Shown here: piece by piece, positions 1,485 to 32,041 of the stretch
Layout of the letters: each line of letters starts with the position of its first letter
Numbering within the stretch: the first letter of the stretch is position 1
Virus record (IMG/VR): IMGVR_UViG_3300035208_003217
DNA length: 64,000 nucleotides
Reading direction: 5' to 3' (one strand)
Source of the DNA: a virus
Position numbers and translations under genes: made by a program
The notes under the pieces: model-generated
What the model was told of the DNA's origin: nothing
What the model saw: the letters and a program-made list of their open reading frames with translations, nothing else
Databases searched by the model: none

Positions 1485-1556
1485 TGCGAGTAGAGAGATT
1501 CGAACTCTCGTATCCTGCTTGGAAGGCAGGCGGACTAACCACTATCCTATACTCGC
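1485..1556 (-). tRNA. tRNA-Gly (anticodon UCC)
   Basis: The reverse complement folds as a cloverleaf. Acceptor GCGAGTA pairs with TACTCGC, the D-stem is GGAT/GTCC, the anticodon stem is CCTGC/GCAGG around loop CUUCCAA, and the T-arm is GAGAG-TTCGAAT-CTCTC. Length 72 nt. Confidence 0.8.
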
Positions 1557-6344: not shown

Positions 6345-6367
6345 ATTATTGATTTATTTTTAATCAG

Positions 6368-6440
6368 CGCCGAGTACTGGATTCGAACCAGTGTTGACCG
6401 TTTTGGAGACGGTAGTCCTAGACCACTAAACGAACTCGAC
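6368..6440 (-). tRNA. tRNA-Trp (anticodon CCA)
   Basis: The reverse complement gives acceptor GTCGAGT pairing with ACTCGGC (one G-U pair). The anticodon stem is ACCGT/ACGGT around loop CUCCAAA, and the T-arm is ACTGG-TTCGAAT-CCAGT. Length 73 nt. Confidence 0.75.
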
Positions 6441-6465: not shown

Positions 6466-7281
6466 TTATAAAGTAAAATGAACATCTTTATAATCTACAC
6501 GTAATTTTGCTTTCGGAGATCCTAATTTTGTAATAGGAAGATTTTTTGATTGAGCATAAGTATTGTCCCATCTTAAGTAACTTCCTGTTAATACGGCGTA
6601 GCATTTATTTTCTACTACCATATGACTTCTTAAATCAATTTGTTGGGCCATAACAGGTTCAGCGGCAATAGAATGAACATGACCCATAGCTACTATATCT
6701 GCTTTAATCCAGGCAAGGATATCCATAATAGCTTTTAATTTTGTATGCTTGAATTTTGAACCTGAACTTCCATGAGTTGTATACATTGTATAATTTTGTT
6801 TACCAACTTTTAGAAGATTCCAACAACTATATCCTAAATATGGAATATTAAGAAATTTACACATTAATTTAGTAACATTTATAGAAGTCGTTTTAAGAAT
6901 ACGATCTTCATGATTACCTTCATGCAGTCCAATTATCAATCCGGCATCAGCTAATGGTCTTAATAATTCAATTACTTCATCCATTTGTTTTTGTGGATTT
7001 AATTCTTGTTGATATACACTATCTCCAACTGAATTAATAAGACCTGCTTCAATATAATCTCCCATTCCAATAATATATGATTTATTTTTAAGAGCCCAAT
7101 CAAGAAATCCTTTTGCTTTTTTAATATCACATTCAGGATGTCCTAGATGTAGATCTCCAAAGAATAAAAGTTCAACATAATTATCTTTATTTGGAATTAA
7201 TTTAGCACGATTTAATCGAATAGGTCTTCCAATAATCTTATCCTTTTTAAGATTATTATGAATAAACTTTTTTGTTTTCAT
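6466..7281 (-). CDS. calcineurin-like metallophosphoesterase
   Basis: Metallophosphatase motifs GDLHLGH, GMGDYIE and GNHEDR. 271 aa. Confidence 0.7.
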   Translation of the reverse strand: MKTKKFIHNNLKKDKIIGRPIRLNRAKLIPNKDNYVELLFFGDLHLGHPECDIKKAKGFLDWALKNKSYIIGMGDYIEAGLINSVGDSVYQQELNPQKQMDEVIELLRPLADAGLIIGLHEGNHEDRILKTTSINVTKLMCKFLNIPYLGYSCWNLLKVGKQNYTMYTTHGSSGSKFKHTKLKAIMDILAWIKADIVAMGHVHSIAAEPVMAQQIDLRSHMVVENKCYAVLTGSYLRWDNTYAQSKNLPITKLGSPKAKLRVDYKDVHFTL

Positions 7282-7285: not shown

Positions 7286-8200
7286 TTATTGTTGAATTCC
7301 TCCAGTAGTATTTACTGGAATTGGACCATACATATTATTTGGAACAAAGACTCCATTCCATTTTTCTGCTTTAATTTTAGCAATTTCAAGTTCCATCTTC
7401 TTTAATTCAATATCCCAGTTAACAGCTACTGATTGATTGTATTTCTTAATACCTTCGCCTTCTAAGGCTTTAGCATCAGCATTTAATTGAGCTGCGGCTT
7501 TTTCTCCTTCAGCAACTGTAATGGCAATTTGCTTTTGAGCAGTAGCTTGAACTACACCTTTTTGAGCTTCTTGTTCTGCCATCAATTTTTCCTGTTCTTT
7601 CTGTTTAACCTGTTGGCTACGATTCATAGTTTCTTTAATTTGAGCATCAAAATCATCGGACCAATCGTAGTTAATAATTTGTAGTTCAGTTACTTCAATT
7701 GGATAATTAATTAATTTTTCTTGTAATCTTTTGAATACATTTCCTCTTACTTGATCTTGCATCGTTGCTAATTCAAAAATAGTATAATTACCTATCTCTG
7801 CTTTAAAACTTTCTTTTAATGTTTGACCAATAATATCTCCTATTTTTTGAGTTCCATATTGACTATACATCATTGGTAACTGATCTGGCTTAAATTTATA
7901 GAAGATAGTCATATCAGAACCAATAGTTTGATTGTCTTTTGTAATAGCACCACTACCTCCAACTGGAACATTTTGATCGAGTTGAATTGGTTGAATACTA
8001 ATTTTTTTAACTTTCTGCATAAAAGGAACTTTTGTATGTAATCCTGGTTCAATAATTCTATCACTAACAGCACCCCAATTAAATAATAGTCCCTTTTCGT
8101 TTGCTGATACTTTATAAAATGGATTCAATAAGGCAAGCAAGATAAATGCTATCAACGAAATTACAATCCACTTTACATAATTAATCTCTTTTTGTTCCAT
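7286..8200 (-). CDS. SPFH/band-7 (prohibitin/HflC-like) membrane protein
   Basis: N-terminal transmembrane helix, a band-7 core, and a C-terminal Ala/Gln/Glu-rich coiled coil (QEAQKGVVQATAQKQIAITVAEGEKAAAQL). Confidence 0.65.
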   Translation of the reverse strand: MEQKEINYVKWIVISLIAFILLALLNPFYKVSANEKGLLFNWGAVSDRIIEPGLHTKVPFMQKVKKISIQPIQLDQNVPVGGSGAITKDNQTIGSDMTIFYKFKPDQLPMMYSQYGTQKIGDIIGQTLKESFKAEIGNYTIFELATMQDQVRGNVFKRLQEKLINYPIEVTELQIINYDWSDDFDAQIKETMNRSQQVKQKEQEKLMAEQEAQKGVVQATAQKQIAITVAEGEKAAAQLNADAKALEGEGIKKYNQSVAVNWDIELKKMELEIAKIKAEKWNGVFVPNNMYGPIPVNTTGGIQQ

Positions 8201-8409
8201 ACTTTTTTTGTTTCTTTTTATTATTCTTAAATGATTTGGAAATACGATTCCATAATAACAATAATAATAAGAAAATTATTATAAATAAAAATGGCTCAAA
8301 TAATATTTTCATATTTTATAAACAAATTATAATTAAAGTAATAATTGCTACTAAGATTGGAATGATATGAACTGCACAAAATCTTTTTGATTGAATTGTT
8401 AATTTCATA

Positions 8410-8766
8410 TTATTTTAATAAAGAATCAATAAGTTCTTTTGCTTCATCAAATCCATGACAAATAAATGATTCAACTCCTACACATTTATTAAGTTCTTCT
8501 TGCCATTCTTTTTGTTCTTGACTAACTGTTCCTCCTTTTTTCTTTTTCATTTCAATAAAGATTAAATTATTTTTATTTTTTCCCGGGATAATAATAATCA
8601 TATCAGGAACTCCTTTTCGTAATCCACTTTTTTTATTATTAGTTGTAACTCCCCAATTTGTTGTATATGTTTCTTGGGCAATTTTTGAAAACTTTAAATG
8701 TTTTAATTCAAGATAAATTACAAGATTACATTGTTCTTGAAATTCACTAAGTATAATTTGTTTCAT
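8410..8766 (-). CDS. VRR-NUC domain nuclease (PD-(D/E)XK)
   Basis: The GVPDMIIII...IFIEMKKKKG...SQEQKEW arrangement matches the VRR-NUC pattern of PD...E.K followed by Q..W. 118 aa. Confidence 0.6.
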   Translation of the reverse strand: MKQIILSEFQEQCNLVIYLELKHLKFSKIAQETYTTNWGVTTNNKKSGLRKGVPDMIIIIPGKNKNNLIFIEMKKKKGGTVSQEQKEWQEELNKCVGVESFICHGFDEAKELIDSLLK

Positions 8767-8807
8767 ATTATTTCTTTATAAATTCCTCGTGGCATATTAT
8801 TTAATGG

Positions 8808-9389
8808 TTAATTTCTTTTAGATTTCTTAGTAACTTTAAAATCTTCTGAATTATAAGGTGTTGTTTTAGCTTTTCCACTTTTTATATCATCTACTATTTT
8901 ATTTACATCTTTTATTTTCTTTTGAATAGGAGCTTGTTTAAATCCACAATAAGTCATTTCCCATAAAAAGTGAGCAAGTATCTCGGCTGGTTTATAAGCT
9001 TTTAAAACACTAGGTGCTATCTTCCAATTAGCTGTTTCTTGCCAACGAGTAAATTCAATAGCATAAGTCATATTTTTTTCTCCTTTTTTTAATCCATGAG
9101 TTCTATAATATTCTTCACCAGGTTCGTCCATTGTAACCCATTCTTTTTTATCCTTTAAATAAAATTTATATGGTCTAGACAGTGAAATAAGAATACTCCA
9201 TTCCTTATCCTTTTCTGGATCTTCTTTATATTTAGACATTTCTTTTATTATTCTTTCGTATTGTTCTAATGCCCATTTATTTATTCTGGGATAAGGATAA
9301 TGATACTTTAAAGCACGAGTAACTTCTTTAAAAGGTATTCTTTGAGCTAAGTCAATAATGTTTCGATACTTGTAAATTTTGTAAGTCAT
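8808..9389 (-). CDS. hypothetical protein
   Basis: 193 aa ORF with no recognisable motif. Confidence 0.45.
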   Translation of the reverse strand: MTYKIYKYRNIIDLAQRIPFKEVTRALKYHYPYPRINKWALEQYERIIKEMSKYKEDPEKDKEWSILISLSRPYKFYLKDKKEWVTMDEPGEEYYRTHGLKKGEKNMTYAIEFTRWQETANWKIAPSVLKAYKPAEILAHFLWEMTYCGFKQAPIQKKIKDVNKIVDDIKSGKAKTTPYNSEDFKVTKKSKRN

Positions 9390-9403
9390 ATATTTATATT
9401 ATG

Positions 9404-9474
9404 TACGCAGAGATAGAATCGAACTATCATTAGAGCTATATAAGAACCCCATTCTACCATTGAAATATCTGCGT
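9404..9474 (-). tRNA. tRNA, low-GC, anticodon probably UAU (Ile)
   Basis: Acceptor ACGCAGA pairs perfectly with TCTGCGT. T-arm GATAG-TTCGATT-CTATC. Anticodon stem GGGTT/AGCTC uses two G-U pairs around loop CUUAUAU. The D-stem has only 3 bp. The anticodon call is tentative. Confidence 0.45.
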
Positions 9475-9480
9475 ATTATG

Positions 9481-9551
9481 TCAGAGATGGAAGAGTCGAA
9501 CTTCCCCCACGTGGATCCAAGCCACGCATGCTACCGCAACACTTATCTCTG
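9481..9551 (-). tRNA. tRNA-Pro (anticodon UGG)
   Basis: Acceptor CAGAGAT pairs with ATCTCTG. Anticodon stem CGTGG/CCACG around loop CUUGGAU. T-arm GGAAG-TTCGACT-CTTCC. Confidence 0.7.
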
Positions 9552-9554
9552 TTT

Positions 9555-9626
9555 GGTGACAGCGGAGAATTGAACTCCAATATCCAGGATCACAACCTAG
9601 CACTTTATCCTTTAAGCTATTATCAC
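9555..9626 (-). tRNA. tRNA-His (anticodon GUG)
   Basis: Acceptor GTGATAA pairs with CTGTCAC (6 of 7 pairs). D-stem GCTT/AAGT. Anticodon stem CTAGG/CCTGG around loop UUGUGAU. T-arm TGGAG-TTCAATT-CTCCG. Discriminator C. Confidence 0.6.
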
Positions 9627-9628
9627 AG

Positions 9629-9717
9629 CGGAGAATAAAGGATTCGAACCTTTGAGAAGTTTTTCAACTCCTGCTAGTTTTCAAGACTAGTGCAATCATC
9701 CACTCTGCCAATTCTCC
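9629..9717 (-). tRNA. tRNA-Ser (anticodon UGA), long variable arm
   Basis: Acceptor GGAGAAT pairs with ATTCTCC. Anticodon stem CTAGT/ACTAG around loop CUUGAAA. Long extra arm. T-arm AAAGG-TTCGAAT-CCTTT. Length 89 nt. Confidence 0.8.
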
Positions 9718-9718
9718 G

Positions 9719-9801
9719 TACCTCTAATAGGATTCGAACCTATAATGTCTTTCGACGCTGGTTTCTAAAACCAGTATGTCTACCTATTCCATCATAGAGG
9801 C
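9719..9801 (-). tRNA. tRNA-Leu (anticodon UAG), long variable arm
   Basis: Acceptor GCCTCTA pairs with TAGAGGT (G1-U72 wobble). Anticodon stem CTGGT/ACCAG around loop UUUAGAA. 13 nt extra arm. T-loop TTCGAAT. Confidence 0.7.
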
Positions 9802-9807
9802 AAAATG

Positions 9808-9892
9808 TGGAAGCAGTAAGATTCGAACTTACGAAGTCACATGGGACATATGGTCTACAGCCATACGCATTTGACCGCTTTGCTATACTTCC
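9808..9892 (-). tRNA. tRNA-Tyr (anticodon GUA), long variable arm
   Basis: Acceptor GGAAGTA pairs with TGCTTCC. Anticodon stem TATGG/CCATA around loop CUGUAGA. Long extra arm. T-loop TTCGAAT. Confidence 0.75.
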
Positions 9893-9896
9893 ATTG

Positions 9897-9967
9897 AGGA
9901 TCCACTAAGAATCGAACTTAGATACTATGATTAACAGTCATTTGCTTTACCATTAAGCTATAGATCC
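9897..9967 (-). tRNA. tRNA-Asn (anticodon GUU)
   Basis: Acceptor GGATCTA pairs with TGGATCC. D-stem GCTT/AAGC. Anticodon loop CUGUUAA. T-arm CTAAG-TTCGATT-CTTAG. Confidence 0.7.
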
Positions 9968-9972
9968 TTTAG

Positions 9973-10043
9973 CTCCGGAACAAGGATTCGAACCTCAATT
10001 TCTAGGTTCAAAGCCTAGCGTCCTGCCGTTAGACGATTCCGAA
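9973..10043 (-). tRNA. tRNA-Gln (anticodon UUG)
   Basis: Acceptor starts U1-A72 (TTCGGAA pairs with TTCCGGA), as in bacterial tRNA-Gln. Anticodon stem CTAGG/CCTAG around loop CUUUGAA. T-loop TTCGAAT. Confidence 0.7.
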
Positions 10044-10046
10044 AAA

Positions 10047-11351
10047 TTAGCTACTACTTTCTATATCTACATTGCCTTCATCTAGCAATTTAGTTTCATA
10101 TTCTAAAAACTTAAATGATTTTAACTTATATGTATCAAACTGAAAACCAGATTCTTTTCTTAAGACAATACCTTCTTCAGGAACTTTATTTTTACAAATG
10201 AAACAATCTTTTTCAGTGTATTCTCTTTGTAAATATTTAATAAAATCTCCTCTCCATTCTTCATCTCCTATTAATAAATCTTTTCTAAATAATAAATCAA
10301 TTACTTTTCCATAATAGAATAAAGGAACATATTCTAATCCATATCTATCGCAGAATTCTTTGATTTCAAGTGTAGATAAATTATAGACAAATCCAAATTC
10401 ATTTGTCAATGTTATTCTATATATCATTAACTTTTTCTGTTCTTGTTCACAACCATAATCATATCCTTTCTGAATACAACCTCCACTCTTAGTATACCCA
10501 AGACATTCGCCATAAAGAGTATAACCTTGAGGAATTTTATCTTTTAATTCTTCTTTAATTTCTCCCCATAAATCATATTCATAGTAATGTTCTTTATGAG
10601 AGGTTTCGAACTCGTTCTTGACAACTTTGCGAGAACCATAGACGTAGTCATATTCAATATCTTTGATTTTAACTCCAATTGTTTTAAGAGCTTTTTCATA
10701 TAGTTTTAATTTACGCTTTACTAAAATATTTGAAACCCAAAATGATGTTCCGTGAACTTTATAGGTAATAGAGATATAATCTTCAAGATTTATTTTGTCT
10801 ATATTTCTTAGTAAATTTTCAGTATCAACATGTAAATGAACTTGTCCTTCAACTAATCTTGAAATTCTAGGCTTCTTTCCTTGTCTATTTGACAACCCGC
10901 TATTTCTAGTTGGAACAAAATACTTTTTAAGTATCTGTATCTTATTAACCATATCAAATTCCTTATTTAATTCAATAGGAATATCATATCCTATAAATTT
11001 TTCAAAGGTAGAAAAAGGAAATAAAACTCCCATTGATTTTTGTCCGCGAAGTCTGACAGCTCTTACTCTTCCATTATCTTCAAAGAATCCGCACTTTTCA
11101 TCATTAACTATTTCATTTAGATTACTGTGTCTATATGAATTTGTATGTGCTAAAAAAGAACTATTTATTTGCGACTCGAGTGGAAAAAAGATACAAACAT
11201 CTCCAACTTTAGTATCCATACCAACAATAACTTCCTGAAAATCTATAATAGCAATTTGAAGTTTATCTGCATTTGGATGCTTTTTTAATTCTTTAATTTG
11301 AACTACTTTGGCAAGGTAGTTTTTATTAGCGTCTTTTGAGATTGATAACAT
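10047..11351 (-). CDS. RNA ligase (Rnl2-like nucleotidyltransferase) fused to an N-terminal tRNA-binding (Myf/Trbp111-type OB) domain
   Basis: The N-terminus KVVQIKELKKHPNADKLQIAIIDFQEVIVG...VGDVCIFFPLE matches the tRNA_bind OB-fold signature (HPNADKL). The downstream ligase has motif I YKVHGTS (KxHGT, as in T4 Rnl2), motif IV EGIVLRKE and motif V YKLKS. 434 aa. Confidence 0.7.
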   Translation of the reverse strand: MLSISKDANKNYLAKVVQIKELKKHPNADKLQIAIIDFQEVIVGMDTKVGDVCIFFPLESQINSSFLAHTNSYRHSNLNEIVNDEKCGFFEDNGRVRAVRLRGQKSMGVLFPFSTFEKFIGYDIPIELNKEFDMVNKIQILKKYFVPTRNSGLSNRQGKKPRISRLVEGQVHLHVDTENLLRNIDKINLEDYISITYKVHGTSFWVSNILVKRKLKLYEKALKTIGVKIKDIEYDYVYGSRKVVKNEFETSHKEHYYEYDLWGEIKEELKDKIPQGYTLYGECLGYTKSGGCIQKGYDYGCEQEQKKLMIYRITLTNEFGFVYNLSTLEIKEFCDRYGLEYVPLFYYGKVIDLLFRKDLLIGDEEWRGDFIKYLQREYTEKDCFICKNKVPEEGIVLRKESGFQFDTYKLKSFKFLEYETKLLDEGNVDIESSS

Positions 11352-11364
11352 ATAATTTTATTAG

Positions 11365-11437
11365 CCCAACCGCCTAGATTCGAACTAGAAATTCCGGTTT
11401 AGAAAACCAGTGTTTTATCCTATTAGACTACGGTTGG
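11365..11437 (-). tRNA. tRNA-Arg (anticodon UCU)
   Basis: Acceptor CCAACCG pairs perfectly with CGGTTGG. Anticodon stem CTGGT/ACCGG around loop UUUCUAA. T-arm TCTAG-TTCGAAT-CTAGG. Confidence 0.7.
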
Positions 11438-11440
11438 TTT

Positions 11441-12307
11441 TTAAAAATCTATTCTAGGATCCATTGTATTGACATCGCAAACAAATAGACTAAGATTTTT
11501 CCACATTCTAATTACTTTAGGACGGTCATCAAAGACAGTTAAAACATTATACTTATCTTTAATATACTTATTATAGAATTCTTCTTTAACTATTTCATCA
11601 GGTCTTTTGTCTCCTTCATTTCGCATTACTAATTTTGTATATTTGATATGATTTTTTTCAAGCCAGTCTTCTGTTTCTTTTTTACAATCACTATCGCGTC
11701 CACTAAAAATAAATAAATCAAATTGTTCCAAGTGTTTTAATATCTTAATTAGATTAATGTTAGGAATGTCATCCGATACTTTAGTATAATCATAAGGACT
11801 TCGATAGATTCCTTCTGCTAATGTTCCGTCTATATCACAAATTATACAAGGACTTAAATCATAATTGTATTCTTTGTCTTGATACTTTTTTTCTCTTAAA
11901 TACTGATTATACATATTAAGAATAACTCTTTTACCAACAGATTCTTCTCCTCTTTTGCTATCTCTTTCTATACATTCATATAAAGGAGTATCTATAAACT
12001 TAATTTCTACTTTAACATTCTTATAAATAGATGCTATCCTTTTAATTCTATCAATATGTTTTTGAGCAAAGTTTGTATCATCAACTATAATATTATATCC
12101 TTCTGTAAGAGCACGCATTATAATAGCATCACGAACACTTAATACAAAGTTTTCTGTTTTCTGATTATAAACTTTATTAGAAAGCATTGCTCTTAGATCA
12201 TCTTTATTAACTCGTTTCCAAAAATTCGGTTCTTTAGTTACTAATTCTTTAGCAAAGGTACTTTTTCCGGAAGCGGGTAATCCTTGTAAGATTAATATTT
12301 TTTGCAT
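11441..12307 (-). CDS. pnkp: polynucleotide 5'-kinase/3'-phosphatase (T4 Pnkp-like)
   Basis: N-terminal P-loop GLPASGKST (kinase). C-terminal HAD phosphatase motif CDIDGTL. Collinear similarity to T4 Pnk throughout, for example KRPDEIVKEEFYNKYI and FDDRPKVIRMWKNL. Confidence 0.8.
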   Translation of the reverse strand: MQKILILQGLPASGKSTFAKELVTKEPNFWKRVNKDDLRAMLSNKVYNQKTENFVLSVRDAIIMRALTEGYNIIVDDTNFAQKHIDRIKRIASIYKNVKVEIKFIDTPLYECIERDSKRGEESVGKRVILNMYNQYLREKKYQDKEYNYDLSPCIICDIDGTLAEGIYRSPYDYTKVSDDIPNINLIKILKHLEQFDLFIFSGRDSDCKKETEDWLEKNHIKYTKLVMRNEGDKRPDEIVKEEFYNKYIKDKYNVLTVFDDRPKVIRMWKNLSLFVCDVNTMDPRIDF

Positions 12308-12576
12308 ATAATTATTGCTGTAATAATTTGTGTGTCTAAAAGACTTTCTTCTTGCTTTATATCTATAAATCCTTTTTCATACATTGCTTCGGCTAATTTT
12401 CTTATCATACCTAATTTAATACTTTCAATATATTTTTCATCTATTACATTTTTTAAGAAATCATTTGAAATATGTTGCTGGAAAGAAAATATCTGTTCTT
12501 CGCCATTTCTAATTTTATAAGGATATAAATAATGTGCGATTAATTGTGCCAATCTTTCTAGTAGTTTTTTAAACAT
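12292..12576 (-). CDS. hypothetical protein
   Basis: 94 aa. It begins MFKKLL like the neighbouring ORF, so the two may be paralogs. Confidence 0.4.
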   Translation of the reverse strand: MFKKLLERLAQLIAHYLYPYKIRNGEEQIFSFQQHISNDFLKNVIDEKYIESIKLGMIRKLAEAMYEKGFIDIKQEESLLDTQIITAIIICKKY

Positions 12577-12577
12577 A

Positions 12578-12838
12578 TTATTCTTTTACTGCTTTATGTA
12601 AATCAATTCCAATATGCTTTATAAAAAGTTTACGTAATTCTTGTCCCATTTTTTCTCCTTGAATACACATATCATATATATTCATTCCTTTTTTATTATA
12701 ATAATCATACATTTTATTTGATACTACTTCCATTAATATAAGAGAAGCATTTACAAAATCTTTATTAGTATAATGATCTTTTTTTCCAGATATCTCAAGA
12801 GCCATATCTGCTAATTCATTTAATTTTTTTTTAAACAT
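12578..12838 (-). CDS. hypothetical protein
   Basis: 86 aa, beginning MFKKKL. Confidence 0.4.
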   Translation of the reverse strand: MFKKKLNELADMALEISGKKDHYTNKDFVNASLILMEVVSNKMYDYYNKKGMNIYDMCIQGEKMGQELRKLFIKHIGIDLHKAVKE

Positions 12839-12842
12839 ATTT

Positions 12843-13985
12843 TTATAATAATGTTCCTTGATTCATAAATGCTAATGTAGGTCCTTCTTTTCTACGTTTA
12901 TCTTGAAGGTCTAAATAGAAACAAATATTAGCAAAGTTTCTTGGTTTGTAAGCCTGAGTTTTTTGTGTAGTCATTACAGGCGTTTGACATTTAGGACATT
13001 TACACTCATCTTCTTTACTAGTTTCCATCATTGATTGAATTCCATATCCAATTTTATTTTTAAGATAGCTATCAATATGTTCTTTAATTTCTAATGGTTT
13101 ATTATTAATATGGTCTTCATCATGAAGATTCTGATCTGATACATATATTCTTCCATACCGAGTTAAAATATTTCCCATTGCTGCTGTTAATGAATATGAG
13201 CTAGAATCAACAGTATACCAAGGATATCTTTCAACAAGTCTTTTAGATGTAACAGCAAATCCATGAGTTTTAATTATTTGTCCCTTCTGAATTCTTGGAT
13301 TTTTAGAATAGTCATAATTCATTATATGACGAAATGAAATATCAAGCCATTCCATTTTTGCTTTTTCAGATGAATCATTACAAGGACTAACTCCAATATA
13401 ATCACATTCATCTAACATTCTATTAAGAACCCAAATAGGTTCACCTTGATGATATACATGAATTGTATCCCAACCTCTTTCTTTTAAGTATTTATAGTTT
13501 TTCCATCCTTGTTCTGCTGCTTCAATAATTTGTTCTTCTGTTGGAACACTTCCTTGTTCTCCTGGAATAACATCTAGATTAACACCTCTCCAGATAATAT
13601 CTTTATATTTATTTAAGTGTTCAAGATATTTATCAATATTAACTAAATGTTTTTTCCAGTTTCCAATTTCATCTACTTTAGCAAGAATTTCTTCCCTTCC
13701 TTTTTGATTTAACAATTGCCACATAGGTTCTCCTCCTATCATATCATATGCTTCTTCTCTTCTTGTTTTTTGTGATAAGTTCCATGAAGTAAATGCTCCA
13801 CTATCACAAATTAAATTAACATTATTTTTTTCAATTAATCCTTTCATTTGCCAAGGTTCGGGATAAGCATATGAGATAAGAATATTTTTGACATTACAGA
13901 TAAGAAGAAATTCTAAGTACTGTTTAGATCCAGTCGCCATAAATAGATTAAAATCTTGTATATCGCTACTAGTTTTTTGAAACAT
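12843..13985 (-). CDS. dpdA: DpdA-like tRNA-guanine transglycosylase family protein (7-deazaguanine DNA transglycosylase)
   Basis: TGT-family fold with a C-terminal zinc motif CKCPKCQ (CxCxxC). It is encoded immediately upstream of queF, folE and queC. Confidence 0.65.
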   Translation of the reverse strand: MFQKTSSDIQDFNLFMATGSKQYLEFLLICNVKNILISYAYPEPWQMKGLIEKNNVNLICDSGAFTSWNLSQKTRREEAYDMIGGEPMWQLLNQKGREEILAKVDEIGNWKKHLVNIDKYLEHLNKYKDIIWRGVNLDVIPGEQGSVPTEEQIIEAAEQGWKNYKYLKERGWDTIHVYHQGEPIWVLNRMLDECDYIGVSPCNDSSEKAKMEWLDISFRHIMNYDYSKNPRIQKGQIIKTHGFAVTSKRLVERYPWYTVDSSSYSLTAAMGNILTRYGRIYVSDQNLHDEDHINNKPLEIKEHIDSYLKNKIGYGIQSMMETSKEDECKCPKCQTPVMTTQKTQAYKPRNFANICFYLDLQDKRRKEGPTLAFMNQGTLL

Positions 13986-13986
13986 A

Positions 13987-14460
13987 TTATTTTAATAATG
14001 AGTGTCTTGCTAATATAGCACTAATTCTATCTTCTTCTTCCTGACATATATCATCTCTTAATAATTCAACAAATGGTGTAAGAGTAATACCTCCTCTTGA
14101 ATTAAATTTTCCAATTACTTGTAAATAGAGAGGTTCAAGTAAATCGAATAAATCCTTTGCTATACGATTAGTAACATCTTCCATGAATTCACCTGATTGT
14201 CTAAATGAAAATAAATATAATTTTAATGATTTAGATTCAACACATTTCTTATCTGGAATATAATTAATTTCAATAGTTGCCATATCCGGTTGATGTGTTT
14301 TTGGACAAAGGCTTGAAAATTCAAAACATTCAAATGGAATGACATAATAATTATCTTGATGTTGATTTTCAAATACTTCAAGTAATTCAGGCTTTGGTTG
14401 ATCAAATACATACTCAGTTTTTTTGGAACCTAACGATTTTAATTTTTTTGTGTCTGACAT
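13987..14460 (-). CDS. queF: NADPH-dependent 7-cyano-7-deazaguanine reductase QueF
   Basis: QueF motif ESKSLKLYL, matching E(S/L)K(S/A)hK(L/Y)(Y/F), and catalytic-Cys region SLCPKTHQPD. Confidence 0.8.
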   Translation of the reverse strand: MSDTKKLKSLGSKKTEYVFDQPKPELLEVFENQHQDNYYVIPFECFEFSSLCPKTHQPDMATIEINYIPDKKCVESKSLKLYLFSFRQSGEFMEDVTNRIAKDLFDLLEPLYLQVIGKFNSRGGITLTPFVELLRDDICQEEEDRISAILARHSLLK

Positions 14461-14464
14461 ACTT

Positions 14465-15034
14465 TTATTTATTTATGTTTATAAGTTGAAAAAATTCATT
14501 TCTTGCTGTTGAATCATTTTCAAATGCTCCTCTAACAATTGAAGTTGTCATTTTACCATCTTTCTTAACTCCACGAATTGATTTACAAGAATGACTTGCT
14601 TTCAGAATTAAAATTATACCCTTCGGTTGTAATTTTCTTTCAATAAATTCTACTACTTGAGCTCCTAATCTTTCTTGAACTTGCATTCGACTCGAATAAA
14701 AATCTATAATACGAGCAATTTTTGATAATCCAATAATTCTTTTATCAGGTATATATCCAAAATAATAATCTCCTTGAAACAGTGCCATATGATGCTCGCA
14801 AAACGAATTAAACTTTCCTTGATCACATATAATTTGATTATAAACTATACCATCATCATCATTATCAAATGCTGTTACTTTTGGCATTTCGTCTTTATCA
14901 TATCCTTTAAATACTTCTAGATACATTTTAGCCATTCTTTGAGGTGTATCTTTAAGTCCAGAACGATTAGGATTCTCTCCTATTTCTTTAAGTAAATCTT
15001 TACAGATTATTTTTAATTTTTTTAAATCTCTCAT
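14465..15034 (-). CDS. folE: GTP cyclohydrolase I FolE
   Basis: GLKDTPQRMAKMY, CEHHMALF and QVQERL are near-identical to FolE signature segments. Confidence 0.85.
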   Translation of the reverse strand: MRDLKKLKIICKDLLKEIGENPNRSGLKDTPQRMAKMYLEVFKGYDKDEMPKVTAFDNDDDGIVYNQIICDQGKFNSFCEHHMALFQGDYYFGYIPDKRIIGLSKIARIIDFYSSRMQVQERLGAQVVEFIERKLQPKGIILILKASHSCKSIRGVKKDGKMTTSIVRGAFENDSTARNEFFQLININK

Positions 15035-15035
15035 A

Positions 15036-15728
15036 TTATTTATTGTAATATTCTAATGGATCTTTTATTTTATTTTTATTGAAGGCTTCTAATCTTTCTT
15101 GACAACTTCCGCATTTTCCACAGGATTGACCTTGATTATTTGGACAATAACAAGTATGTGTATTTTTATAATCAACTCCTAATTTAATTCCTTTCTTAAG
15201 GATAGAAATTTTATTCATCTTTATATAAGGAGCTAAAATCTTTACATTAATATATGTTCCAAACTCTGATGCTTCTCTTATTGCTTCTAAAAAGTCTGAA
15301 CGACAATCTGGATAGATAGCATGATCTCCTCCATGAGCACCATAATATACTTTATCTATTCCATATGATTCGGCAATACCAACTGCTAATGATAGAAGAA
15401 TTCCATTACGAAAAGGAACAACTGTACTTTTCATATTGTTATCTTCATAATGTCCTTGTGGAATTACTTCACTATCTTTATGATTAAGCAATGATGATTT
15501 AAAGTTGGTAAATATATTTTTTAAATCAAGAATTTTATGACTAACTCTTAAATTAAAACATGTATTCATTGCCTTACTTAATTCAACTTTATTGTGTTTA
15601 CTTCCATAATTAAATGAAAGTGCTAATATATTTTGATTACCATACTTTTTAACAATATCATATAGAAGTGTCGTTGAATCAAGTCCTCCTGAAAGTATAA
15701 TGACTGCTTTTTTCTTTTCTGTTTTCAT
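15036..15728 (-). CDS. queC: 7-cyano-7-deazaguanine synthase QueC
   Basis: PP-loop KAVIILSGGLDSTT and C-terminal zinc motif CGKCGSC. Confidence 0.85.
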   Translation of the reverse strand: MKTEKKKAVIILSGGLDSTTLLYDIVKKYGNQNILALSFNYGSKHNKVELSKAMNTCFNLRVSHKILDLKNIFTNFKSSLLNHKDSEVIPQGHYEDNNMKSTVVPFRNGILLSLAVGIAESYGIDKVYYGAHGGDHAIYPDCRSDFLEAIREASEFGTYINVKILAPYIKMNKISILKKGIKLGVDYKNTHTCYCPNNQGQSCGKCGSCQERLEAFNKNKIKDPLEYYNK

Positions 15729-15732
15729 ATAA

Positions 15733-16008
15733 TTATTTTTTACCTTTCTCAGGATGTTTAATATTATGTTTTCCGATAGCTGTTACTTTTTTAGTGCCAG
15801 AAGTTGTTTTGGCAATTCCTGGTTTTATTTTCTCAAAGTTACTCTTTGAATTATTAGATTTATCGTGGTCTTTATGATGAATAAGCTCTCCTGGTTTAGC
15901 ATTCATTAATTTACGACGATAATCAGATGACTTTCCTCCTTTCCATGTTGGATTTTCTTTACCATTTCTGGCCATATTTGGATTTTTCTGTCCTTTTGTG
16001 GGCGCCAT
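15733..16008 (-). CDS. HNH endonuclease (small, free-standing)
   Basis: His-Me finger motif ELIHHKDHDKSNNSKSNFE (HH...D...N...N). 91 aa. It is inserted between queC and queE. Confidence 0.6.
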   Translation of the reverse strand: MAPTKGQKNPNMARNGKENPTWKGGKSSDYRRKLMNAKPGELIHHKDHDKSNNSKSNFEKIKPGIAKTTSGTKKVTAIGKHNIKHPEKGKK

Positions 16009-16009
16009 A

Positions 16010-16312
16010 TTATTTATTATTATATTTTATTAAAAATTCTAATAATTTTCTATGAGTATTAGATAATGAATATATTCTTTCAGGAAGACGATATGGTTTA
16101 TATTTTAAGTATGTTTCTAACATATCACGACTTTCTTTTGAACTTCTCATTATTCTTTCATAAAAATTTCTTTGTGTATATTTTTCTTTTTCACATTTTA
16201 AACAATATAATTTCCATCCTTTATTATTTATATACTCATCAAGTCCTAAATAAAGATGAAAACAAAATAATTGATTTAATTTCATATATTTATACACCTC
16301 TTTTAATATCAT
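16010..16312 (-). CDS. hypothetical protein
   Basis: 100 aa ORF between the HNH gene and queE. Confidence 0.4.
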   Translation of the reverse strand: MILKEVYKYMKLNQLFCFHLYLGLDEYINNKGWKLYCLKCEKEKYTQRNFYERIMRSSKESRDMLETYLKYKPYRLPERIYSLSNTHRKLLEFLIKYNNK

Positions 16313-16949
16313 AAATCATAACATGAAGTCGAGGACTAAAATTATATCCATTTTTTAGACATACATCTAAAAAGTTAGCAATTCCATGATATTGTTTTTC
16401 AGTTGTACCTCCTTCTTTCATTAGATAAATTTTTTCCTTATCAATCTGAACTTGATTTTCAATAAATTTAACTTCATCGAGATCTTCATCTGAACTAATA
16501 ACAAACTTAAAGATTGAATCTTTTTTACTATTTATATATTCTAAAACATCATAATCTAATCTTTTATCTATATCATTTCCAGATGTTCCAAGTTTAGGTG
16601 AACAAGCATAATGGTCAATATATGGGATAATTTTATCAGGCATAATTGTTCCATTAGTTTCAACTGTAATATGATATGAACTATCAAGATTTTCTTGAAA
16701 TAATTCTGTTAATGCTTGTTGTTGTGATAAAGGTTCACCTCCTGTAATAACAATTTTTTTACTATTAAATTTTTTAATTTCTTCGGCAACATCTTTAAGT
16801 TCCATATCTTTTCCGCTCCAATGATATTTAGTATCACAGAATGAACAGTTAAGATTACATCCACTTAATCTTAAGAATATTACATTTGTACCAACATATT
16901 TTCCCTCTCCTTGTATAGCTTGAAAAATTTCGCAAACATGTAATTTCAT
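16290..16949 (-). CDS. queE: 7-carboxy-7-deazaguanine synthase QueE (radical SAM)
   Basis: N-terminus VCEIFQAIQGEGKYVG and radical-SAM cluster motif CNLNCSFC. Confidence 0.85.
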   Translation of the reverse strand: MKLHVCEIFQAIQGEGKYVGTNVIFLRLSGCNLNCSFCDTKYHWSGKDMELKDVAEEIKKFNSKKIVITGGEPLSQQQALTELFQENLDSSYHITVETNGTIMPDKIIPYIDHYACSPKLGTSGNDIDKRLDYDVLEYINSKKDSIFKFVISSDEDLDEVKFIENQVQIDKEKIYLMKEGGTTEKQYHGIANFLDVCLKNGYNFSPRLHVMIYDIKRGV

Positions 16950-16953
16950 ATAT

Positions 16954-17286
16954 TTATCGTTTTTGTGTATAAAAATAACTAATTATATTCTTTATCTTAT
17001 GATTTTTTTGATCTTTTATATCTTGTTGATGAAGTCTTTTCAAAATATTTAAGTCTTGTTCTGATATCAATGCTCCTTGTTCAAGACATTTTGATTGACT
17101 TAATTCATCATAAAATTTTTCAGCGTTACCATCTTTAACAAATTCTGTTAAATTAATATTAAATGGTACATAATTTGGTTTATTTTTTATATTACATTCT
17201 ACAGATGAATTAGAATCTATGAATCTTGCTTGAGGTATTCTAGAAGTACTATCATAATCAAGTATATTATTATAAGTATAATTCAT
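16954..17286 (-). CDS. hypothetical protein
   Basis: 110 aa. Confidence 0.4.
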   Translation of the reverse strand: MNYTYNNILDYDSTSRIPQARFIDSNSSVECNIKNKPNYVPFNINLTEFVKDGNAEKFYDELSQSKCLEQGALISEQDLNILKRLHQQDIKDQKNHKIKNIISYFYTQKR

Positions 17287-17287
17287 A

Positions 17288-17674: not shown

Positions 17675-17694
17675 ACATTTTATAATTAAATAAA

Positions 17695-31442: not shown

Positions 31443-31599
31443 TTAGTTTATCTCTCGTCGTATAAGACTCCTAAATTATGCGATTTTGCTCTTCGTAGCA
31501 TAAAAATCGAACCCCTCATCTTGGAGAAAAAAACGAGAAGGCGTAATTTCTAGCAGTTTGGAAATTGCCATAATATACGATGAGGGATAACTTAATTAT

Positions 31600-32035: not shown

Positions 32036-32041
32036 CATAAT

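What the first reader, a model, noticed from the sequence alone, without database searches (positions are those of the whole stretch)
9404..12307. tRNA repair module (T4-type Pnkp plus RNA ligase fused to a tRNA-binding domain) flanking a cluster of 8 tRNAs
Pnkp has the kinase P-loop and the DxDGT phosphatase motif. With an Rnl2-like ligase (KxHGT) it forms the same pairing that T4 uses to heal tRNAs cleaved by host anticodon nucleases.

The ligase carries an N-terminal OB-fold tRNA-binding domain of the Trbp111, CsaA or MetRS C-terminal type (KHPNADKL). I do not know this fusion from characterised RNA ligases. It would target the ligase directly to tRNA.

The two genes bracket a tRNA cluster: Ile?(UAU), Pro, His, Ser, Leu, Tyr, Asn, Gln, with Arg(UCU) between ligase and kinase. 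Together they suggest a counter-defence against tRNA-cleaving toxins of the PrrC, RloC, colicin or VapC type.
Basis: partly seen in the sequence, partly recalled or inferred. Interest (0 to 1): 0.7.

Follow-up and report, generated by a model that had tools for sequence, protein, structure and literature searches.

The report
Phage RNA-repair genes inside tRNA array
A phage carries an RNA end-healing enzyme and an RNA ligase woven into a string of tRNA genes; this is a real but already known kind of RNA-repair kit, and the ligase's "new" tRNA-binding-like domain is the standard hallmark of the Rnl5 ligase family.

Summary
On the minus strand lie a T4-type polynucleotide kinase-phosphatase (11441-12307), tRNA-Arg(UCU), a 434-aa ATP-dependent RNA ligase (10047-11351), and eight contiguous tRNAs (9403-10043).

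- **Ligase class.** The ligase is not Rnl2-like. Its whole-length fold matches Naegleria RNA ligase (Rnl5) at E~1e-15, against 1e-7 for T4 Rnl2.
- **N-terminal domain.** It is an OB domain of the tRNA_bind/EMAP type. That fusion defines Rnl5 (DraRnl, NgrRnl). In solved Rnl5 enzymes it helps ligase adenylylation, and no tRNA-targeting role has been shown.
- **Family position.** The protein belongs to a divergent, almost purely phage-borne ~430-aa branch (Pfam PF21189+PF09414, PHROG 968). That branch is annotated "RNA ligase" in about 400 cultured phages, including mycobacteriophages, for which Pnk + ligase + tRNAs were already proposed as an RNA-repair counter-defence.

What is mildly new is the genomic pattern. 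In this branch Pnkp is linked to the ligase in 43 of 80 viral loci. The pair repeatedly sits inside tRNA arrays in different gene orders: 6 of 14 loci lie within 100 bp of a tRNA, against 0.4 expected. Cellular Rnl5 loci show neither link.

Verdict: a new member of a known kind, of modest interest.

The parts
11441..12307 (-). Bifunctional polynucleotide 5'-kinase / 3'-phosphatase (T4-type Pnkp), 288 aa. The kinase domain covers about aa 1-145 and the HAD phosphatase aa 154-281 (nt 11465-11848).
   Evidence: Pfam HAD_PNKP 8.7e-40 and AAA_33 3.7e-18. PHROG 505 'polynucleotide kinase' 4.5e-86. PDB matches are T4 Pnkp 1ltq at 5.7e-33 over residues 1-274 and Capnocytophaga Pnkp1 4xrp at 4.8e-36. 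The alignment to T4 Pnkp shows P-loop G9-x4-G14-K15-S16-T17, D36/R39 in NKDDLR, D158-x-D160-GTL and D269-D270-R271.
11364..11437 (-). tRNA-Arg(UCU). It lies 3 nt after the Pnkp stop codon and 12 nt (TAATAAAATTAT) before the ligase ATG.
   Evidence: ARAGORN. Rfam tRNA 54.2 bits. Sequence read directly. The same position is kept in relatives L001-L003.
10047..11351 (-). ATP-dependent RNA ligase, 434 aa, of a divergent phage branch of the Rnl5 architecture.
   Evidence: Pfam RNA_ligase + PF21189. PHROG 968 'RNA ligase' 3.8e-63. TIGR02306 (DraRnl family) 9.7e-13 but below its cutoff. The AF2 model has pLDDT 87. Its best Foldseek match is NgrRnl at 1.3e-15 over about 425 alignment columns, against 1.7e-7 for T4 Rnl2.
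10917..11351 (-). Ligase N-terminal OB domain (aa 1-145), carrying KHPNADKL and RVRAVRLRGQKSMG.
   Evidence: PF21189 matches 52 of 52 family members and tRNA_bind matches 32 of 52 below threshold. The domain-only AF2 model has pLDDT 93. Foldseek ranks the NgrRnl N-domain first at 4e-6, then PheRS-beta B2, tRNA-binding proteins, MetRS-C, Trbp111 and EMAPII. E59 is invariant in the family and aligns with NgrRnl Asp53.
10110..10775 (-). Ligase nucleotidyltransferase domain (Pfam match aa 193-414). Motifs: motif I T196-x-K198-x-H200-G201; motif Ia-like G239-S240-R241; motif III E282; motif IIIa Y311-R312; motif IV E392-E393-G394; motif V K409-x-K411.
   Evidence: These are invariant columns in the 52-sequence family alignment. 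K198, G201, S203, E282, G285, R312, E393, G394 and K409 are shared with the canonical Rnl5 of Aeromonas phage AhFM11.
9403..10043 (-). Array of eight tRNA genes: Gln-UUG 9972-10043, Asn-GUU 9896-9967, Tyr-GUA 9807-9892, Leu-UAG 9718-9801, Ser-UGA 9628-9717, His-GUG 9555-9626, Pro-UGG 9480-9551, Ile-UAU 9403-9474. Spacers are 0-5 nt. None has an encoded CCA end.
   Evidence: ARAGORN. Rfam tRNA, all above gathering score. Sequences printed. A comparable array sits at the same place in L001-L003.
10380..10409 (-). Possible internal promoter for the tRNA array (TTGACA-18-TATAAT). It is uncertain.
   Evidence: It is the only perfect sigma-70 consensus in the 64-kb window on either strand. It lies about 340 nt upstream of tRNA-Gln, and both hexamers are kept in L001-L003. 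Promoter-like sites are not enriched overall (38 found vs 40.4 expected). The host may not use sigma-70-type signals.

Best explanation
This is a phage 'heal-and-seal' RNA repair module that is co-located, and probably co-transcribed, with phage tRNA genes.

**Proposed mechanism**
1. Pnkp heals broken RNA ends. Its P-loop kinase phosphorylates the 5'-OH. Its HAD phosphatase (DxDGT) removes the 3'-phosphate or 2',3'-cyclic phosphate.
2. The Rnl5-type ligase seals the break by the classic three steps. Lys198 is adenylylated by ATP, with the N-terminal OB domain positioning the pyrophosphate leaving group. AMP is then transferred to the 5'-PO4. Finally the 3'-OH attacks the activated end.
3. The most likely substrates are tRNAs cut in the anticodon loop by host tRNases. 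The two halves stay base-paired, so the break resembles a nick.
4. The neighbouring tRNA genes add a second layer by supplying replacement tRNAs and by matching the phage's A/U-rich codons.

**Shown:** enzyme identities, catalytic motifs, fold, and the conserved Pnkp-ligase and tRNA linkage.

**Inferred:** that tRNA is the substrate, and that the purpose is counter-defence.
For: **Enzyme identities**
- Pnkp.
- Ligase.

**Conserved linkage with Pnkp**
- A Pnkp homolog lies within 3 kb on the same strand in 43 of 80 IMG/VR loci that encode a ligase relative. In 35 of these the match spans both Pnkp domains; in 8 it covers the kinase domain only. Many of the remaining loci are cut off next to the ligase.
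- The pairing also occurs in mycobacteriophage Henry and in two Ignavibacteriota MAG contigs.
- In a relative with a 60%-identical ligase the order is ligase - RlaP (the RNA-ligase-associated nucleotidyltransferase) - Pnkp.

**tRNA linkage**
- The module is interleaved with tRNA arrays in several different orders: Pnkp - 11 tRNAs - ligase in L013; Pnkp - 5 tRNAs - ligase in L018; Pnkp - ligase - 3 tRNAs in L009/L038; and tRNAs - ligase - Pnkp in L019.
- Six of 14 non-redundant tRNA-bearing loci have the module within 100 bp of a tRNA, against 0.38 expected and 0 of 5000 permutations.
- The other neighbours of the window module are not shared by these loci.
- 75 cellular loci with canonical Rnl5 have neither a T4-type Pnkp nor tRNAs within 6 kb.

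**Literature**
- T4 Pnkp plus ligase reverse PrrC damage, as cited in PMC7824862.
- Pnk + RNA ligase + tRNAs were proposed as RNA repair in mycobacteriophage clusters E, J and L (PMC3706429, PMC5511906).

**Same phage**
- It also encodes a Ro60/TROVE protein next to a YrlA-like RNA.
Against: - No substrate is known for any Rnl5 enzyme. The characterised members seal nicks in duplexes whose 3'-OH strand is RNA, and DraRnl has a DNA-repair phenotype after irradiation (PMC5397189).
- T4 repairs tRNA with Rnl1, not with a nick-sealing ligase.
- The host is unknown, so no anticodon nuclease can be pointed to.
- 63 of 80 related viral loci have no tRNA within 10 kb. The tRNA link is therefore limited to the closer relatives (ligase at least 50% identical), which may share ancestry, and that inflates the permutation result.
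- The tRNA anticodons match the phage's most-used codons: AGA is 69% of Arg codons, GGA 66% of Gly, CAA 86% of Gln, ACA 52% of Thr and ATA 31% of Ile. Plain codon supplementation predicts the same set.
- The immediate neighbours in the window are DNA-metabolism genes: the DpdA/7-deazaguanine set, VRR-NUC, Rad52 and PD-(D/E)XK.
Confidence: 0.6

Rival explanations
1. The pair works on DNA or on RNA:DNA junctions. Pnkp would heal, and the nick-sealing ligase would close, breaks in phage DNA whose 3'-OH end is a ribonucleotide patch. Such breaks could arise during replication, recombination or 7-deazaguanine base exchange. On this reading the tRNA neighbourhood is incidental.
For: - DraRnl is needed for timely genome reassembly after irradiation. 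Rnl5 and Rnl2 enzymes accept DNA in the 5'-PO4 and template strands (PMC5397189, PMC4408790).
- In the window Pnkp lies directly downstream of the DpdA-like, QueF, FolE and QueC genes. VRR-NUC, Rad52-like and PD-(D/E)XK genes are close by.
Against: - The Pnkp-ligase pair recurs without the 7-deazaguanine genes. Only 1 of 80 loci shares them.
- The pair recurs next to tRNA arrays far more often than chance predicts.
- It occurs with RlaP, an enzyme that adds nucleotides to RNA (PMC12776372).
Confidence: 0.15
2. The module repairs or processes RNA in general, for example mRNA, rRNA or structured non-coding RNA handled with the phage Ro60/Y-RNA particle, rather than tRNA specifically. The tRNA arrays are simply the accessory, highly expressed early region where such genes accumulate, and the tRNAs serve codon supplementation.
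For: - The phage encodes TROVE/Ro60 plus a YrlA-like RNA.
- The anticodons match the most-used codons.
- Most related loci lack nearby tRNAs.
- Promoter and terminator scans give no sign of a dedicated unit.
Against: - Adjacency within 100 bp occurs in 6 of 14 tRNA-bearing loci and in different gene orders. Other accessory neighbours are not conserved.
- tRNAs are the documented targets of most known translation-directed phage defences (PMC7824862, PMC10264068).
Confidence: 0.15
3. The N-terminal OB domain is a tRNA-recognition module that delivers the ligase to tRNA, which would make it a tRNA-dedicated ligase unlike characterised ones.
For: - The fold and the sequence motifs (KHPNADKL, LRGxxSxG) are those of tRNA_bind domains.
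- JGI annotators labelled relatives 'tRNA-binding EMAP/Myf-like protein'.
- The gene is embedded in tRNA arrays.
Against: - The nearest structure is the OB domain of NgrRnl. That domain contacts the ATP gamma-phosphate through Arg4, Asp53 and Lys121, and it is needed for adenylylation rather than for the sealing step (PMC7261155).
- The Asp53 equivalent, E59, is invariant in this family.
- The Pfam tRNA_bind match is below threshold (15.9 vs 27 bits).
- The same domain is present in cellular Rnl5 enzymes that have no tRNA context.
Confidence: 0.2

Closest known systems
[quoted passage not shown]
   Same: - The architecture is the same: an N-terminal OB domain, a C-terminal nucleotidyltransferase and no C-terminal appendage.
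- NgrRnl is the best structural match for the whole protein and for the N-domain alone.
- All nucleotidyltransferase motifs are shared, as is the N-domain RxxxxLRGxxSxG segment.
- An acidic residue sits at the Asp53 position (E59).
   Different: - The protein has about 95 more residues (434 aa vs 339-342). Insertions lie after motif I and before motif IV, and there is a short acidic tail.
- It is only 24% identical to a canonical phage Rnl5.
- It scores 47.7 bits against a TIGR02306 cutoff of 151.
- The branch is almost entirely phage-borne and is linked to Pnkp and tRNA genes, which cellular Rnl5 loci are not.
- No member of this branch has, to my knowledge, been characterised biochemically.
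Mycobacteriophage Pnk + RNA ligase + tRNA sets (clusters E, J, L; e.g. Omega, Cjw1, Henry, CrystalP)
   Same: - The ligases are full-length homologs, 30-32% identical with 98-100% coverage.
- Pnk lies about 0.6 kb upstream of the ligase in Henry.
   Different: - In mycobacteriophages the genes are not embedded in tRNA arrays, and in cluster J they are not even adjacent (PMC3706429).
- Here the ligase is flanked by tRNA genes at 3 nt and 12 nt.
Bacteriophage T4 tRNA repair (Pnkp/PseT + Rnl1, countering PrrC)
   Same: - The Pnkp is of the T4 type over its full length (5.7e-33 to 1ltq).
- The heal-and-seal logic is the same.
   Different: - T4 seals tRNA-Lys with Rnl1, a ligase with a C-terminal tRNA-specificity domain. 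This ligase is Rnl5-like.
- No PrrC-like host nuclease can be named here.
T4 Rnl2 / kinetoplastid RNA-editing ligases (Rnl2 family)
   Same: The nucleotidyltransferase core is related (Foldseek 1.7e-7, profile-vs-PDB 0.003). Nick-sealing chemistry is expected for both.
   Different: There is no Rnl2 C-terminal alpha-helical domain. The accessory domain here is N-terminal and is an OB fold.
tRNA_bind OB domains (Trbp111, CsaA, YtpR, MetRS C-terminal domain, PheRS-beta B2, EMAPII/Arc1p)
   Same: The fold type is the same, and the conserved HPNAD and LRG..S.G segments are shared.
   Different: - Matches are below the family threshold.
- The domain is fused to a ligase, and its nearest relative there has a catalytic role in adenylylation.
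- tRNA binding has not been tested.
Bacterial Pnkp1-Rnl-Hen1 repair complex (Capnocytophaga gingivalis, PDB 4xrp)
   Same: The best PDB sequence match of the window Pnkp is Pnkp1 (4.8e-36).
   Different: No Hen1 methyltransferase was found among the window ORFs I scanned. The ligase partner was not compared.

Membership tests
Rnl5 RNA ligases | N-terminal OB domain fused to a C-terminal nucleotidyltransferase domain, with no C-terminal appendage. | tested here: met
   Pfam PF21189 covers aa 13-112 and RNA_ligase aa 193-414. The whole-length Foldseek match to NgrRnl is 1.3e-15 with TM 0.68-0.71 normalised by target length. The N-domain alone matches NgrRnl best. The protein ends about 20 aa after motif V.
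Rnl5 RNA ligases | [quoted passage not shown] | tested here: met
   K198/H200/G201, S240/R241, E282/G285, Y311/R312, E393/G394 and K409/K411 are invariant in 52 family members. They align with the canonical Rnl5 of phage AhFM11.
Rnl5 RNA ligases | Passes the curated family model (TIGR02306 RNA_lig_DRB0094, cutoff 151.15 bits). | tested here: not met
   The window ligase scores 47.7 bits (E 9.7e-13), and only over aa 15-207. Mycobacteriophage Henry gp89 scores 27.6 bits, whereas the AhFM11 protein scores 471 bits. The window protein therefore belongs to a divergent sister branch, not the equivalog.
Rnl5 RNA ligases | Seals 3'-OH/5'-PO4 nicks whose 3'-OH strand is RNA; prefers Mn2+; the N-domain is needed for adenylylation. 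| not testable with these tools
   This requires biochemistry. The only support here is conservation of E59 at the NgrRnl Asp53 position (PMC7261155).
T4-type Pnkp | N-terminal P-loop 5'-kinase (GxxxxGKS/T, catalytic Asp, Arg). | tested here: met
   G9-LPAS-G14-K15-S16-T17, D36 and R39 align with T4 Pnkp residues in 1ltq. AAA_33 matches at 3.7e-18.
T4-type Pnkp | C-terminal HAD-type 3'-phosphatase with the DxDGT nucleophile motif. | tested here: met
   D158-I-D160-G-T-L and the DDR triplet at 269-271 are present. Pfam HAD_PNKP matches at 8.7e-40 over profile positions 3-140 of 143.
tRNA_bind domain (PF01588; Trbp111/CsaA/MetRS-C type) | Passes the Pfam gathering score. | tested here: not met
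   The score is 15.9 bits against a cutoff of 27 (E 0.014), and the match covers only aa 15-40. It is below threshold in 32 of 52 relatives, with a best E-value of 0.0015.
tRNA_bind domain (PF01588; Trbp111/CsaA/MetRS-C type) | Same OB fold. | tested here: met
   Foldseek with the N-domain model hits PheRS-beta B2 (8e-5), YtpR (1.1e-3), 3bu2 (1.2e-3), MetRS-C (4e-3), Trbp111 3ers (5e-3), and Arc1p-C and EMAPII (about 1e-2).
tRNA_bind domain (PF01588; Trbp111/CsaA/MetRS-C type) | Binds tRNA. | not testable with these tools
   This needs binding assays.
Rnl2 RNA ligases | N-terminal nucleotidyltransferase followed by the Rnl2-specific C-terminal helical domain. | tested here: not met
   Only the nucleotidyltransferase core aligns to T4 Rnl2 (about 280 columns, E 1.7e-7). 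There is no C-terminal domain.
Phage tRNA-repair counter-defence (T4 PrrC paradigm) | Healing and sealing enzymes are encoded together by the phage. | tested here: met
   The two genes are adjacent in the window. They are linked in 43 of 80 related viral loci.
Phage tRNA-repair counter-defence (T4 PrrC paradigm) | A host anticodon nuclease whose damage is reversed. | not testable with these tools
   The host is unknown. The only hints are a lack of SD motifs and relatives in Ignavibacteriota and Flavobacterium MAGs.

The most novel reading that the evidence does not exclude
In this phage-specific branch of Rnl5, tRNAs are the natural substrate, and the tRNA_bind-like OB domain has two jobs: assisting adenylylation and recognising tRNA. 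The repeated embedding of the Pnkp and ligase genes inside tRNA arrays would then reflect a co-expressed 'replace and repair' tRNA operon in which tRNA processing also releases the enzyme mRNAs. This would give the first physiological substrate for an Rnl5-type ligase, whose functions the literature calls 'uncharted' (PMC5397189).
Probability: 0.25. Interest if true: 0.55.

Novelty: new member of a known kind. Interest (0 to 1): 0.3.

Why it matters
The finding does not reveal a new enzyme architecture or a new defence logic. Its value is contextual.

A large, almost purely viral branch of Rnl5-like ligases is consistently tied to Pnkp and, in one clade, is physically woven into tRNA arrays. 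The branch has about 2,500 representatives at 50% identity. Cellular Rnl5 genes show neither link.

This is the clearest genomic hint so far about what Rnl5-type ligases do in phages. It also points to easy experiments. Culturable mycobacteriophages carry full-length homologs, so ligase and Pnk knock-outs can be challenged with tRNA-cleaving defences. The recombinant enzyme can be tested on broken tRNA with and without its OB domain.

Tried and rejected
- **Single-sequence search of the PDB.** With the ligase as query it gave only spurious weak hits such as aequorin (E 0.036). A family profile was needed to reach T4 Rnl2 (0.003) and the NgrRnl N-domain (0.016), and a predicted structure was needed for a clear answer.
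- **DNA-level search of cultured phages.** It found only short tRNA matches. No close relative of the window is among the 50,697 phage records.
- **Promoter and terminator scan of 8000-14500.** Hits were not above the shuffled expectation: 38 vs 40.4 for promoters and 2 vs 1.6 for terminators, and both 'terminators' are tRNA arms. A Bacteroidota-type promoter pattern was also not enriched (5 vs 5.8). Transcription units therefore remain undefined.
- **Rfam at gathering thresholds.** It found only the 13 tRNAs.
- **Other repair genes in the window.** tblastn found no RlaP, second ligase or second Pnkp.
- **A 7-deazaguanine link.** The idea that the module is tied to the 7-deazaguanine DNA-modification genes was rejected as a general rule. 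Only 1 of 80 related loci shares those genes.
- **Literature.** The Burroughs & Aravind 2016 survey of RNA repair systems could not be read. I therefore cannot say whether tRNA-array embedding of this ligase was already described there. A search for 'PHA02142' in the paper library found nothing.
- **tRNA set versus nuclease targets.** I considered reading the tRNA set (Tyr, His, Asn, Gln, Arg-UCU) as a match to known anticodon-nuclease targets. I rejected this as uninformative, because 13 tRNAs covering 13 amino acids would overlap any such list.

Full report
**1. What is in the sequence**

The window is a phage genome segment with about 29% G+C. A minus-strand early/metabolic block runs from about 1.5 to 30 kb. 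A plus-strand structural block follows, with small terminase, GroEL, portal, major head and tail proteins.

Within the flagged coordinates, reading 5'->3' on the minus strand, the order is:
- a 288-aa ORF at 11441-12307;
- tRNA-Arg(UCU) at 11364-11437;
- a 434-aa ORF at 10047-11351;
- eight tRNA genes at 9403-10043 (Gln, Asn, Tyr, Leu, Ser, His, Pro, Ile-UAU), separated by 0-5 nt.

All nine tRNAs also pass the Rfam tRNA model. The spacing is very tight. There are 3 nt between the Pnkp stop codon and tRNA-Arg, 12 nt (TAATAAAATTAT) between tRNA-Arg and the ligase ATG, and 3 nt between the ligase stop codon and tRNA-Gln.

The 8-tRNA array follows the ligase and is not bracketed by the two genes.

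**2. The kinase-phosphatase**

The 288-aa protein matches Pfam HAD_PNKP (8.7e-40) and AAA_33 (3.7e-18), and PHROG 505 'polynucleotide kinase' (4.5e-86). It aligns over its full length with T4 Pnkp (1ltq, 5.7e-33) and with Capnocytophaga Pnkp1 (4xrp, 4.8e-36).

That alignment shows the P-loop GLPASGKST, the NKDDLR segment (D36, R39), the phosphatase nucleophile motif D158-I-D160-GTL and the DDR triplet. It is a standard T4-type bifunctional end-healing enzyme.

**3. The ligase**

Database matches:
- Pfam finds RNA_ligase (aa 193-414) and PF21189 'PHA02142 OB-fold domain' (aa 13-112).
- PHROG 968 'RNA ligase' matches end to end (3.8e-63).
- NCBIfam gives TIGR02306, the DraRnl (DRB0094) family, at 9.7e-13. 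The score is below the curated cutoff, and the match covers only the OB domain through motif I.

Structure:
- An AlphaFold2 model built on 52 relatives has a mean pLDDT of 87.
- Its best PDB matches are thirteen entries of Naegleria gruberi RNA ligase, the structural prototype of Rnl5. E-values are 1e-15 to 2e-14 over about 420-440 alignment columns.
- T4 Rnl2 follows at 1.7e-7 and matches only the nucleotidyltransferase core.

N-terminal domain:
- A separate model of residues 1-145 has pLDDT 93.
- It matches the NgrRnl N-domain best (4e-6). Next come PheRS-beta B2 (8e-5), YtpR and 3bu2 (1e-3), MetRS-C (4e-3), E. coli Trbp111 (5e-3), Arc1p-C and EMAPII.
- Pfam tRNA_bind matches below threshold in 32 of 52 relatives, whereas PF21189 matches all 52.

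Rnl5 is defined by 'a signature N-terminal OB domain' fused to a C-terminal adenylyltransferase (PMC5397189, PMC4408790). [quoted passage not shown]

In NgrRnl the OB domain contacts the ATP gamma-phosphate and its metal through Arg4, Asp53 and Lys121. It is required for lysine adenylylation but not for phosphodiester formation (PMC7261155). In the profile alignment to NgrRnl, Asp53 falls on E59, which is invariant in the window's family. The probable Lys121 counterpart is the nearly invariant K143. That assignment is inferred from an alignment to a canonical phage Rnl5, not from a structure superposition.

**4. Where the ligase sits within Rnl5**

A canonical phage Rnl5 from Aeromonas phage AhFM11 has 366 aa and scores 471 bits against TIGR02306. 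It is 24% identical to the window ligase. The two share:
- motif I K-x-(H/D)-G-(T/S)-S;
- E282 and G285 (motif III);
- R312 (motif IIIa);
- E393 and G394 (motif IV);
- K409 (motif V);
- the OB-domain segment R95...L101-R102-G103..S106.

The window protein is about 70-95 residues longer. It has insertions after motif I and before motif IV, and a short acidic tail. Mycobacteriophage Henry gp89, a full-length homolog, also fails the TIGR02306 cutoff.

The branch is large. A full HMMER scan of 1.84 billion cluster representatives gave 2,485 hits at E<=0.001 and 751 at E<=1e-30, nearly all 420-460 aa long.

It occurs in 398 cultured phage records: 296 Mycobacterium, 27 Microbacterium, 22 Gordonia, 15 Prevotella Lak megaphages and Synechococcus phage B3, among others. 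Where these records are annotated, the gene is usually called 'RNA ligase'.

In one genome per species for 185,579 prokaryotic species I found only a few close relatives, all in MAGs: Melioribacter, Ignavibacteriales UBA1304 and Flavobacterium. The other retained loci are canonical Rnl5 genes of Streptomyces, Nocardia and Kitasatospora.

**5. Linkage with Pnkp**

In 80 IMG/VR loci that encode a ligase relative (34-63% identical), a Pnkp homolog lies within 3 kb on the same strand in 43. In 35 of these the match spans both Pnkp domains, and in 8 it covers the kinase domain only. Many of the remaining loci end next to the ligase.

The closest relatives (L001-L003, 85% identical ligase) keep the window's order, including tRNA-Arg between the genes and an 8-tRNA array after the ligase. 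A relative with a 60%-identical ligase has ligase - RlaP - Pnkp and no tRNAs. RlaP is the RNA-ligase-associated nucleotidyltransferase, which adds one or two nucleotides to RNA (PMC12776372, PMC7824862). In mycobacteriophage Henry, Pnk lies two small genes upstream of the ligase.

None of the 75 cellular loci with canonical Rnl5 has a T4-type Pnkp within 6 kb.

**6. Linkage with tRNA genes**

Seventeen of the 80 viral loci have tRNAs within 10 kb, and 11 have them within 2 kb. All 11 are among relatives with a ligase at least 50% identical. The arrangements differ:
- Pnkp - 11 tRNAs - ligase (L013);
- Pnkp - 5 tRNAs - ligase (L018);
- Pnkp - ligase - Gln-His-Pro (L009, L038);
- 2 tRNAs - ligase - Pnkp, then 5 tRNAs 1.3 kb further on (L019);
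- 5 tRNAs - ligase (L022);
- ligase ... Pnkp - Cys (L012);
- Pnkp - ligase - Cys-Asn in an Ignavibacteriales MAG (L091).

Among 14 non-redundant loci with any tRNA, the module lies within 100 bp of a tRNA in 6. Random placement within the same loci gives 0.38 expected, and 0 of 5000 permutations reach 6. The other neighbours of the window module (DpdA, QueF, DUF6557, VRR-NUC and others) are essentially absent from these loci.

The association is therefore more than one frozen synteny block. The loci are still related, so the permutation figure overstates independence.

**7. Mechanism**

The best-supported reading is a heal-and-seal RNA repair module. Pnkp converts 5'-OH and 2',3'-cyclic or 3'-phosphate ends into 5'-PO4 and 3'-OH ends. 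The Rnl5-type ligase joins them through Lys198-AMP.

The most likely targets are tRNAs cut by host tRNases. This rests on the tRNA-array context, on the T4 precedent, and on the published proposal for the homologous mycobacteriophage genes (PMC3706429, PMC5511906, PMC7824862).

The identities, motifs and linkage are shown. The substrate and the counter-defence purpose are inferred.

Points against:
- Rnl5 enzymes are nick-sealing ligases with no known physiological substrate, and DraRnl affects DNA repair after irradiation (PMC5397189).
- The tRNA anticodons fit the phage's own most-used codons (AGA 69%, GGA 66%, CAA 86%, ACA 52%, ATA 31%), as plain codon supplementation predicts.
- The immediate neighbours in the window are DNA-metabolism genes.
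- The host is unknown.

**8. Comparison and novelty**

The module works like the T4 Pnkp/ligase system, and like the Pnk + ligase + tRNA sets of mycobacteriophage clusters E, J and L, whose ligases are full-length homologs. The ligase has the Rnl5 architecture but fails the curated Rnl5 equivalog model. I file it as a divergent, phage-specific branch of Rnl5, already catalogued as PF21189/PHA02142 and PHROG 968.

Nothing here is a new kind of system. The modest new element is the recurrent embedding of the Pnkp-ligase pair in tRNA arrays and its contrast with cellular Rnl5 loci. This offers a testable clue to the unknown biological role of Rnl5-type ligases.

I could not read the main comparative survey of RNA repair systems (Burroughs & Aravind 2016). 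This pattern may already be described there.

**9. Other things seen**

About 11 kb away the phage encodes a TROVE/Ro60-like protein. A YrlA-like (Y RNA-like) element lies 21 nt upstream of it. A full 7-deazaguanine gene set lies directly upstream of Pnkp. Further items are listed under 'noticed in passing'.

Noticed in passing
window 22276-23670 (-) and 23691-23796 (-): A TROVE/Ro60-like protein of 464 aa (Pfam TROVE 8e-23) has a Y-RNA-like element 21 nt upstream of its start codon. The element matches Rfam YrlA at 40.8 bits over the full 114-position model, with E 1e-7 in a 600-nt search. That is below the gathering score of 69. The tRNA-like T-arm and D-arm sequences are intact. The MFE z-score is only -1.5. 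This is a possible phage Ro60/Y-RNA particle, and so a second RNA-surveillance element in the same genome.
   Followed up: partly
window 12843-18090 (-): A complete 7-deazaguanine pathway lies directly upstream of Pnkp: QueD/PTPS 17695-18090, a QueE-like radical SAM protein 16290-16949, QueC 15036-15728, FolE 14465-15034, QueF 13987-14460, and a DpdA/TGT-like protein 12843-13985 (PHROG 887, no Pfam hit). It probably modifies phage DNA with preQ1 or preQ0. Three of the array's tRNAs (Tyr, His, Asn) are species that carry queuosine in bacteria. I did not test this coincidence.
   Followed up: partly
window 10380-10409 (-), inside the ligase ORF: The only perfect TTGACA-18-TATAAT in the whole window on either strand lies about 340 nt upstream of the tRNA array. 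Both hexamers are kept in L001-L003. It could be an internal promoter for the tRNA genes. It could also be meaningless if the host does not use sigma-70-type promoters.
   Followed up: partly
whole window; L090, L091, L092: Only 4 of 40 long ORFs have a Shine-Dalgarno-like motif upstream, and starts are typically preceded by AATAAT. The few cellular-genome relatives of the ligase are in Melioribacter, Ignavibacteriales and Flavobacterium MAGs. Together these hint at a host in the Bacteroidota/Ignavibacteriota group. The closest public relative (P0002, 85% identical, on a 63.9-kb contig) is labelled 'Candidatus Pacearchaeota archaeon' in NCBI. That label is probably a mis-binned phage contig.
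   Followed up: partly
relatives P0115, P0123, P0197, P0209 (not in the window): Some ligase relatives are 580-830 aa long and match the query in two pieces that break at about residues 196-199, which is motif I. P0115 carries Hint/intein Pfam domains. Inteins appear to be inserted at the catalytic lysine motif of this ligase family.
   Followed up: no
window 30972-34236 (+): The order here is: small terminase (30972-31442); tRNA-Thr and tRNA-Met (31963-32113); a 232-aa ORF with no Pfam hit (32122-32820); a 430-nt gap; then an ORF that carries only the terminase nuclease domain (33253-34236, Terminase_3C 4.6e-6). The large terminase may be split by an intron or an inserted element.
   Followed up: no
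window 1556-2074 (-); L001 11990-12508: A Fic/Doc-family protein (Pfam Fic 1.5e-12) directly abuts tRNA-Gly (1484-1556). In relatives it sits between tRNA-Trp and tRNA-Gly/Glu. This is another translation-related accessory gene placed among tRNA genes.
   Followed up: no
window 6466-7281 (-): A 271-aa ORF next to tRNA-Trp (6367-6440) has a weak calcineurin-like phosphoesterase match (Metallophos, E 0.001, below the cutoff). It could be an additional end-processing phosphoesterase. It is absent from L001-L003.
   Followed up: no
window 9403-9474 (-) and all 13 tRNAs: tRNA-Ile carries a UAU anticodon, which reads AUA directly without lysidine. AUA makes up 31% of the phage's Ile codons. None of the 13 tRNA genes encodes the 3' CCA end. 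L013 carries three Ile tRNAs (AAU, GAU, UAU).
   Followed up: no
window 10193-10204 and 10449-10451 (ligase C383, C386, C301): Cysteines C383 (invariant), C386 and C301 (at least 90% conserved) lie in or near the insertion that canonical Rnl5 lacks (KDCFICKNK). They are not conserved in the mycobacteriophage homolog. A metal site is possible but was not examined.
   Followed up: no
window 12292-12838 (-): Two small ORFs of 86 aa and 94 aa lie between the DpdA-like gene and Pnkp. The second overlaps the Pnkp start by 16 nt. Neither has a Pfam or PHROG match, but counterparts of similar size occupy the same place in L001/L002.
   Followed up: no
window 35133-36704 (+): A phage-encoded GroEL-type chaperonin (PHROG 5725, 1.1e-131) lies just upstream of the portal and head genes.
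   Followed up: no
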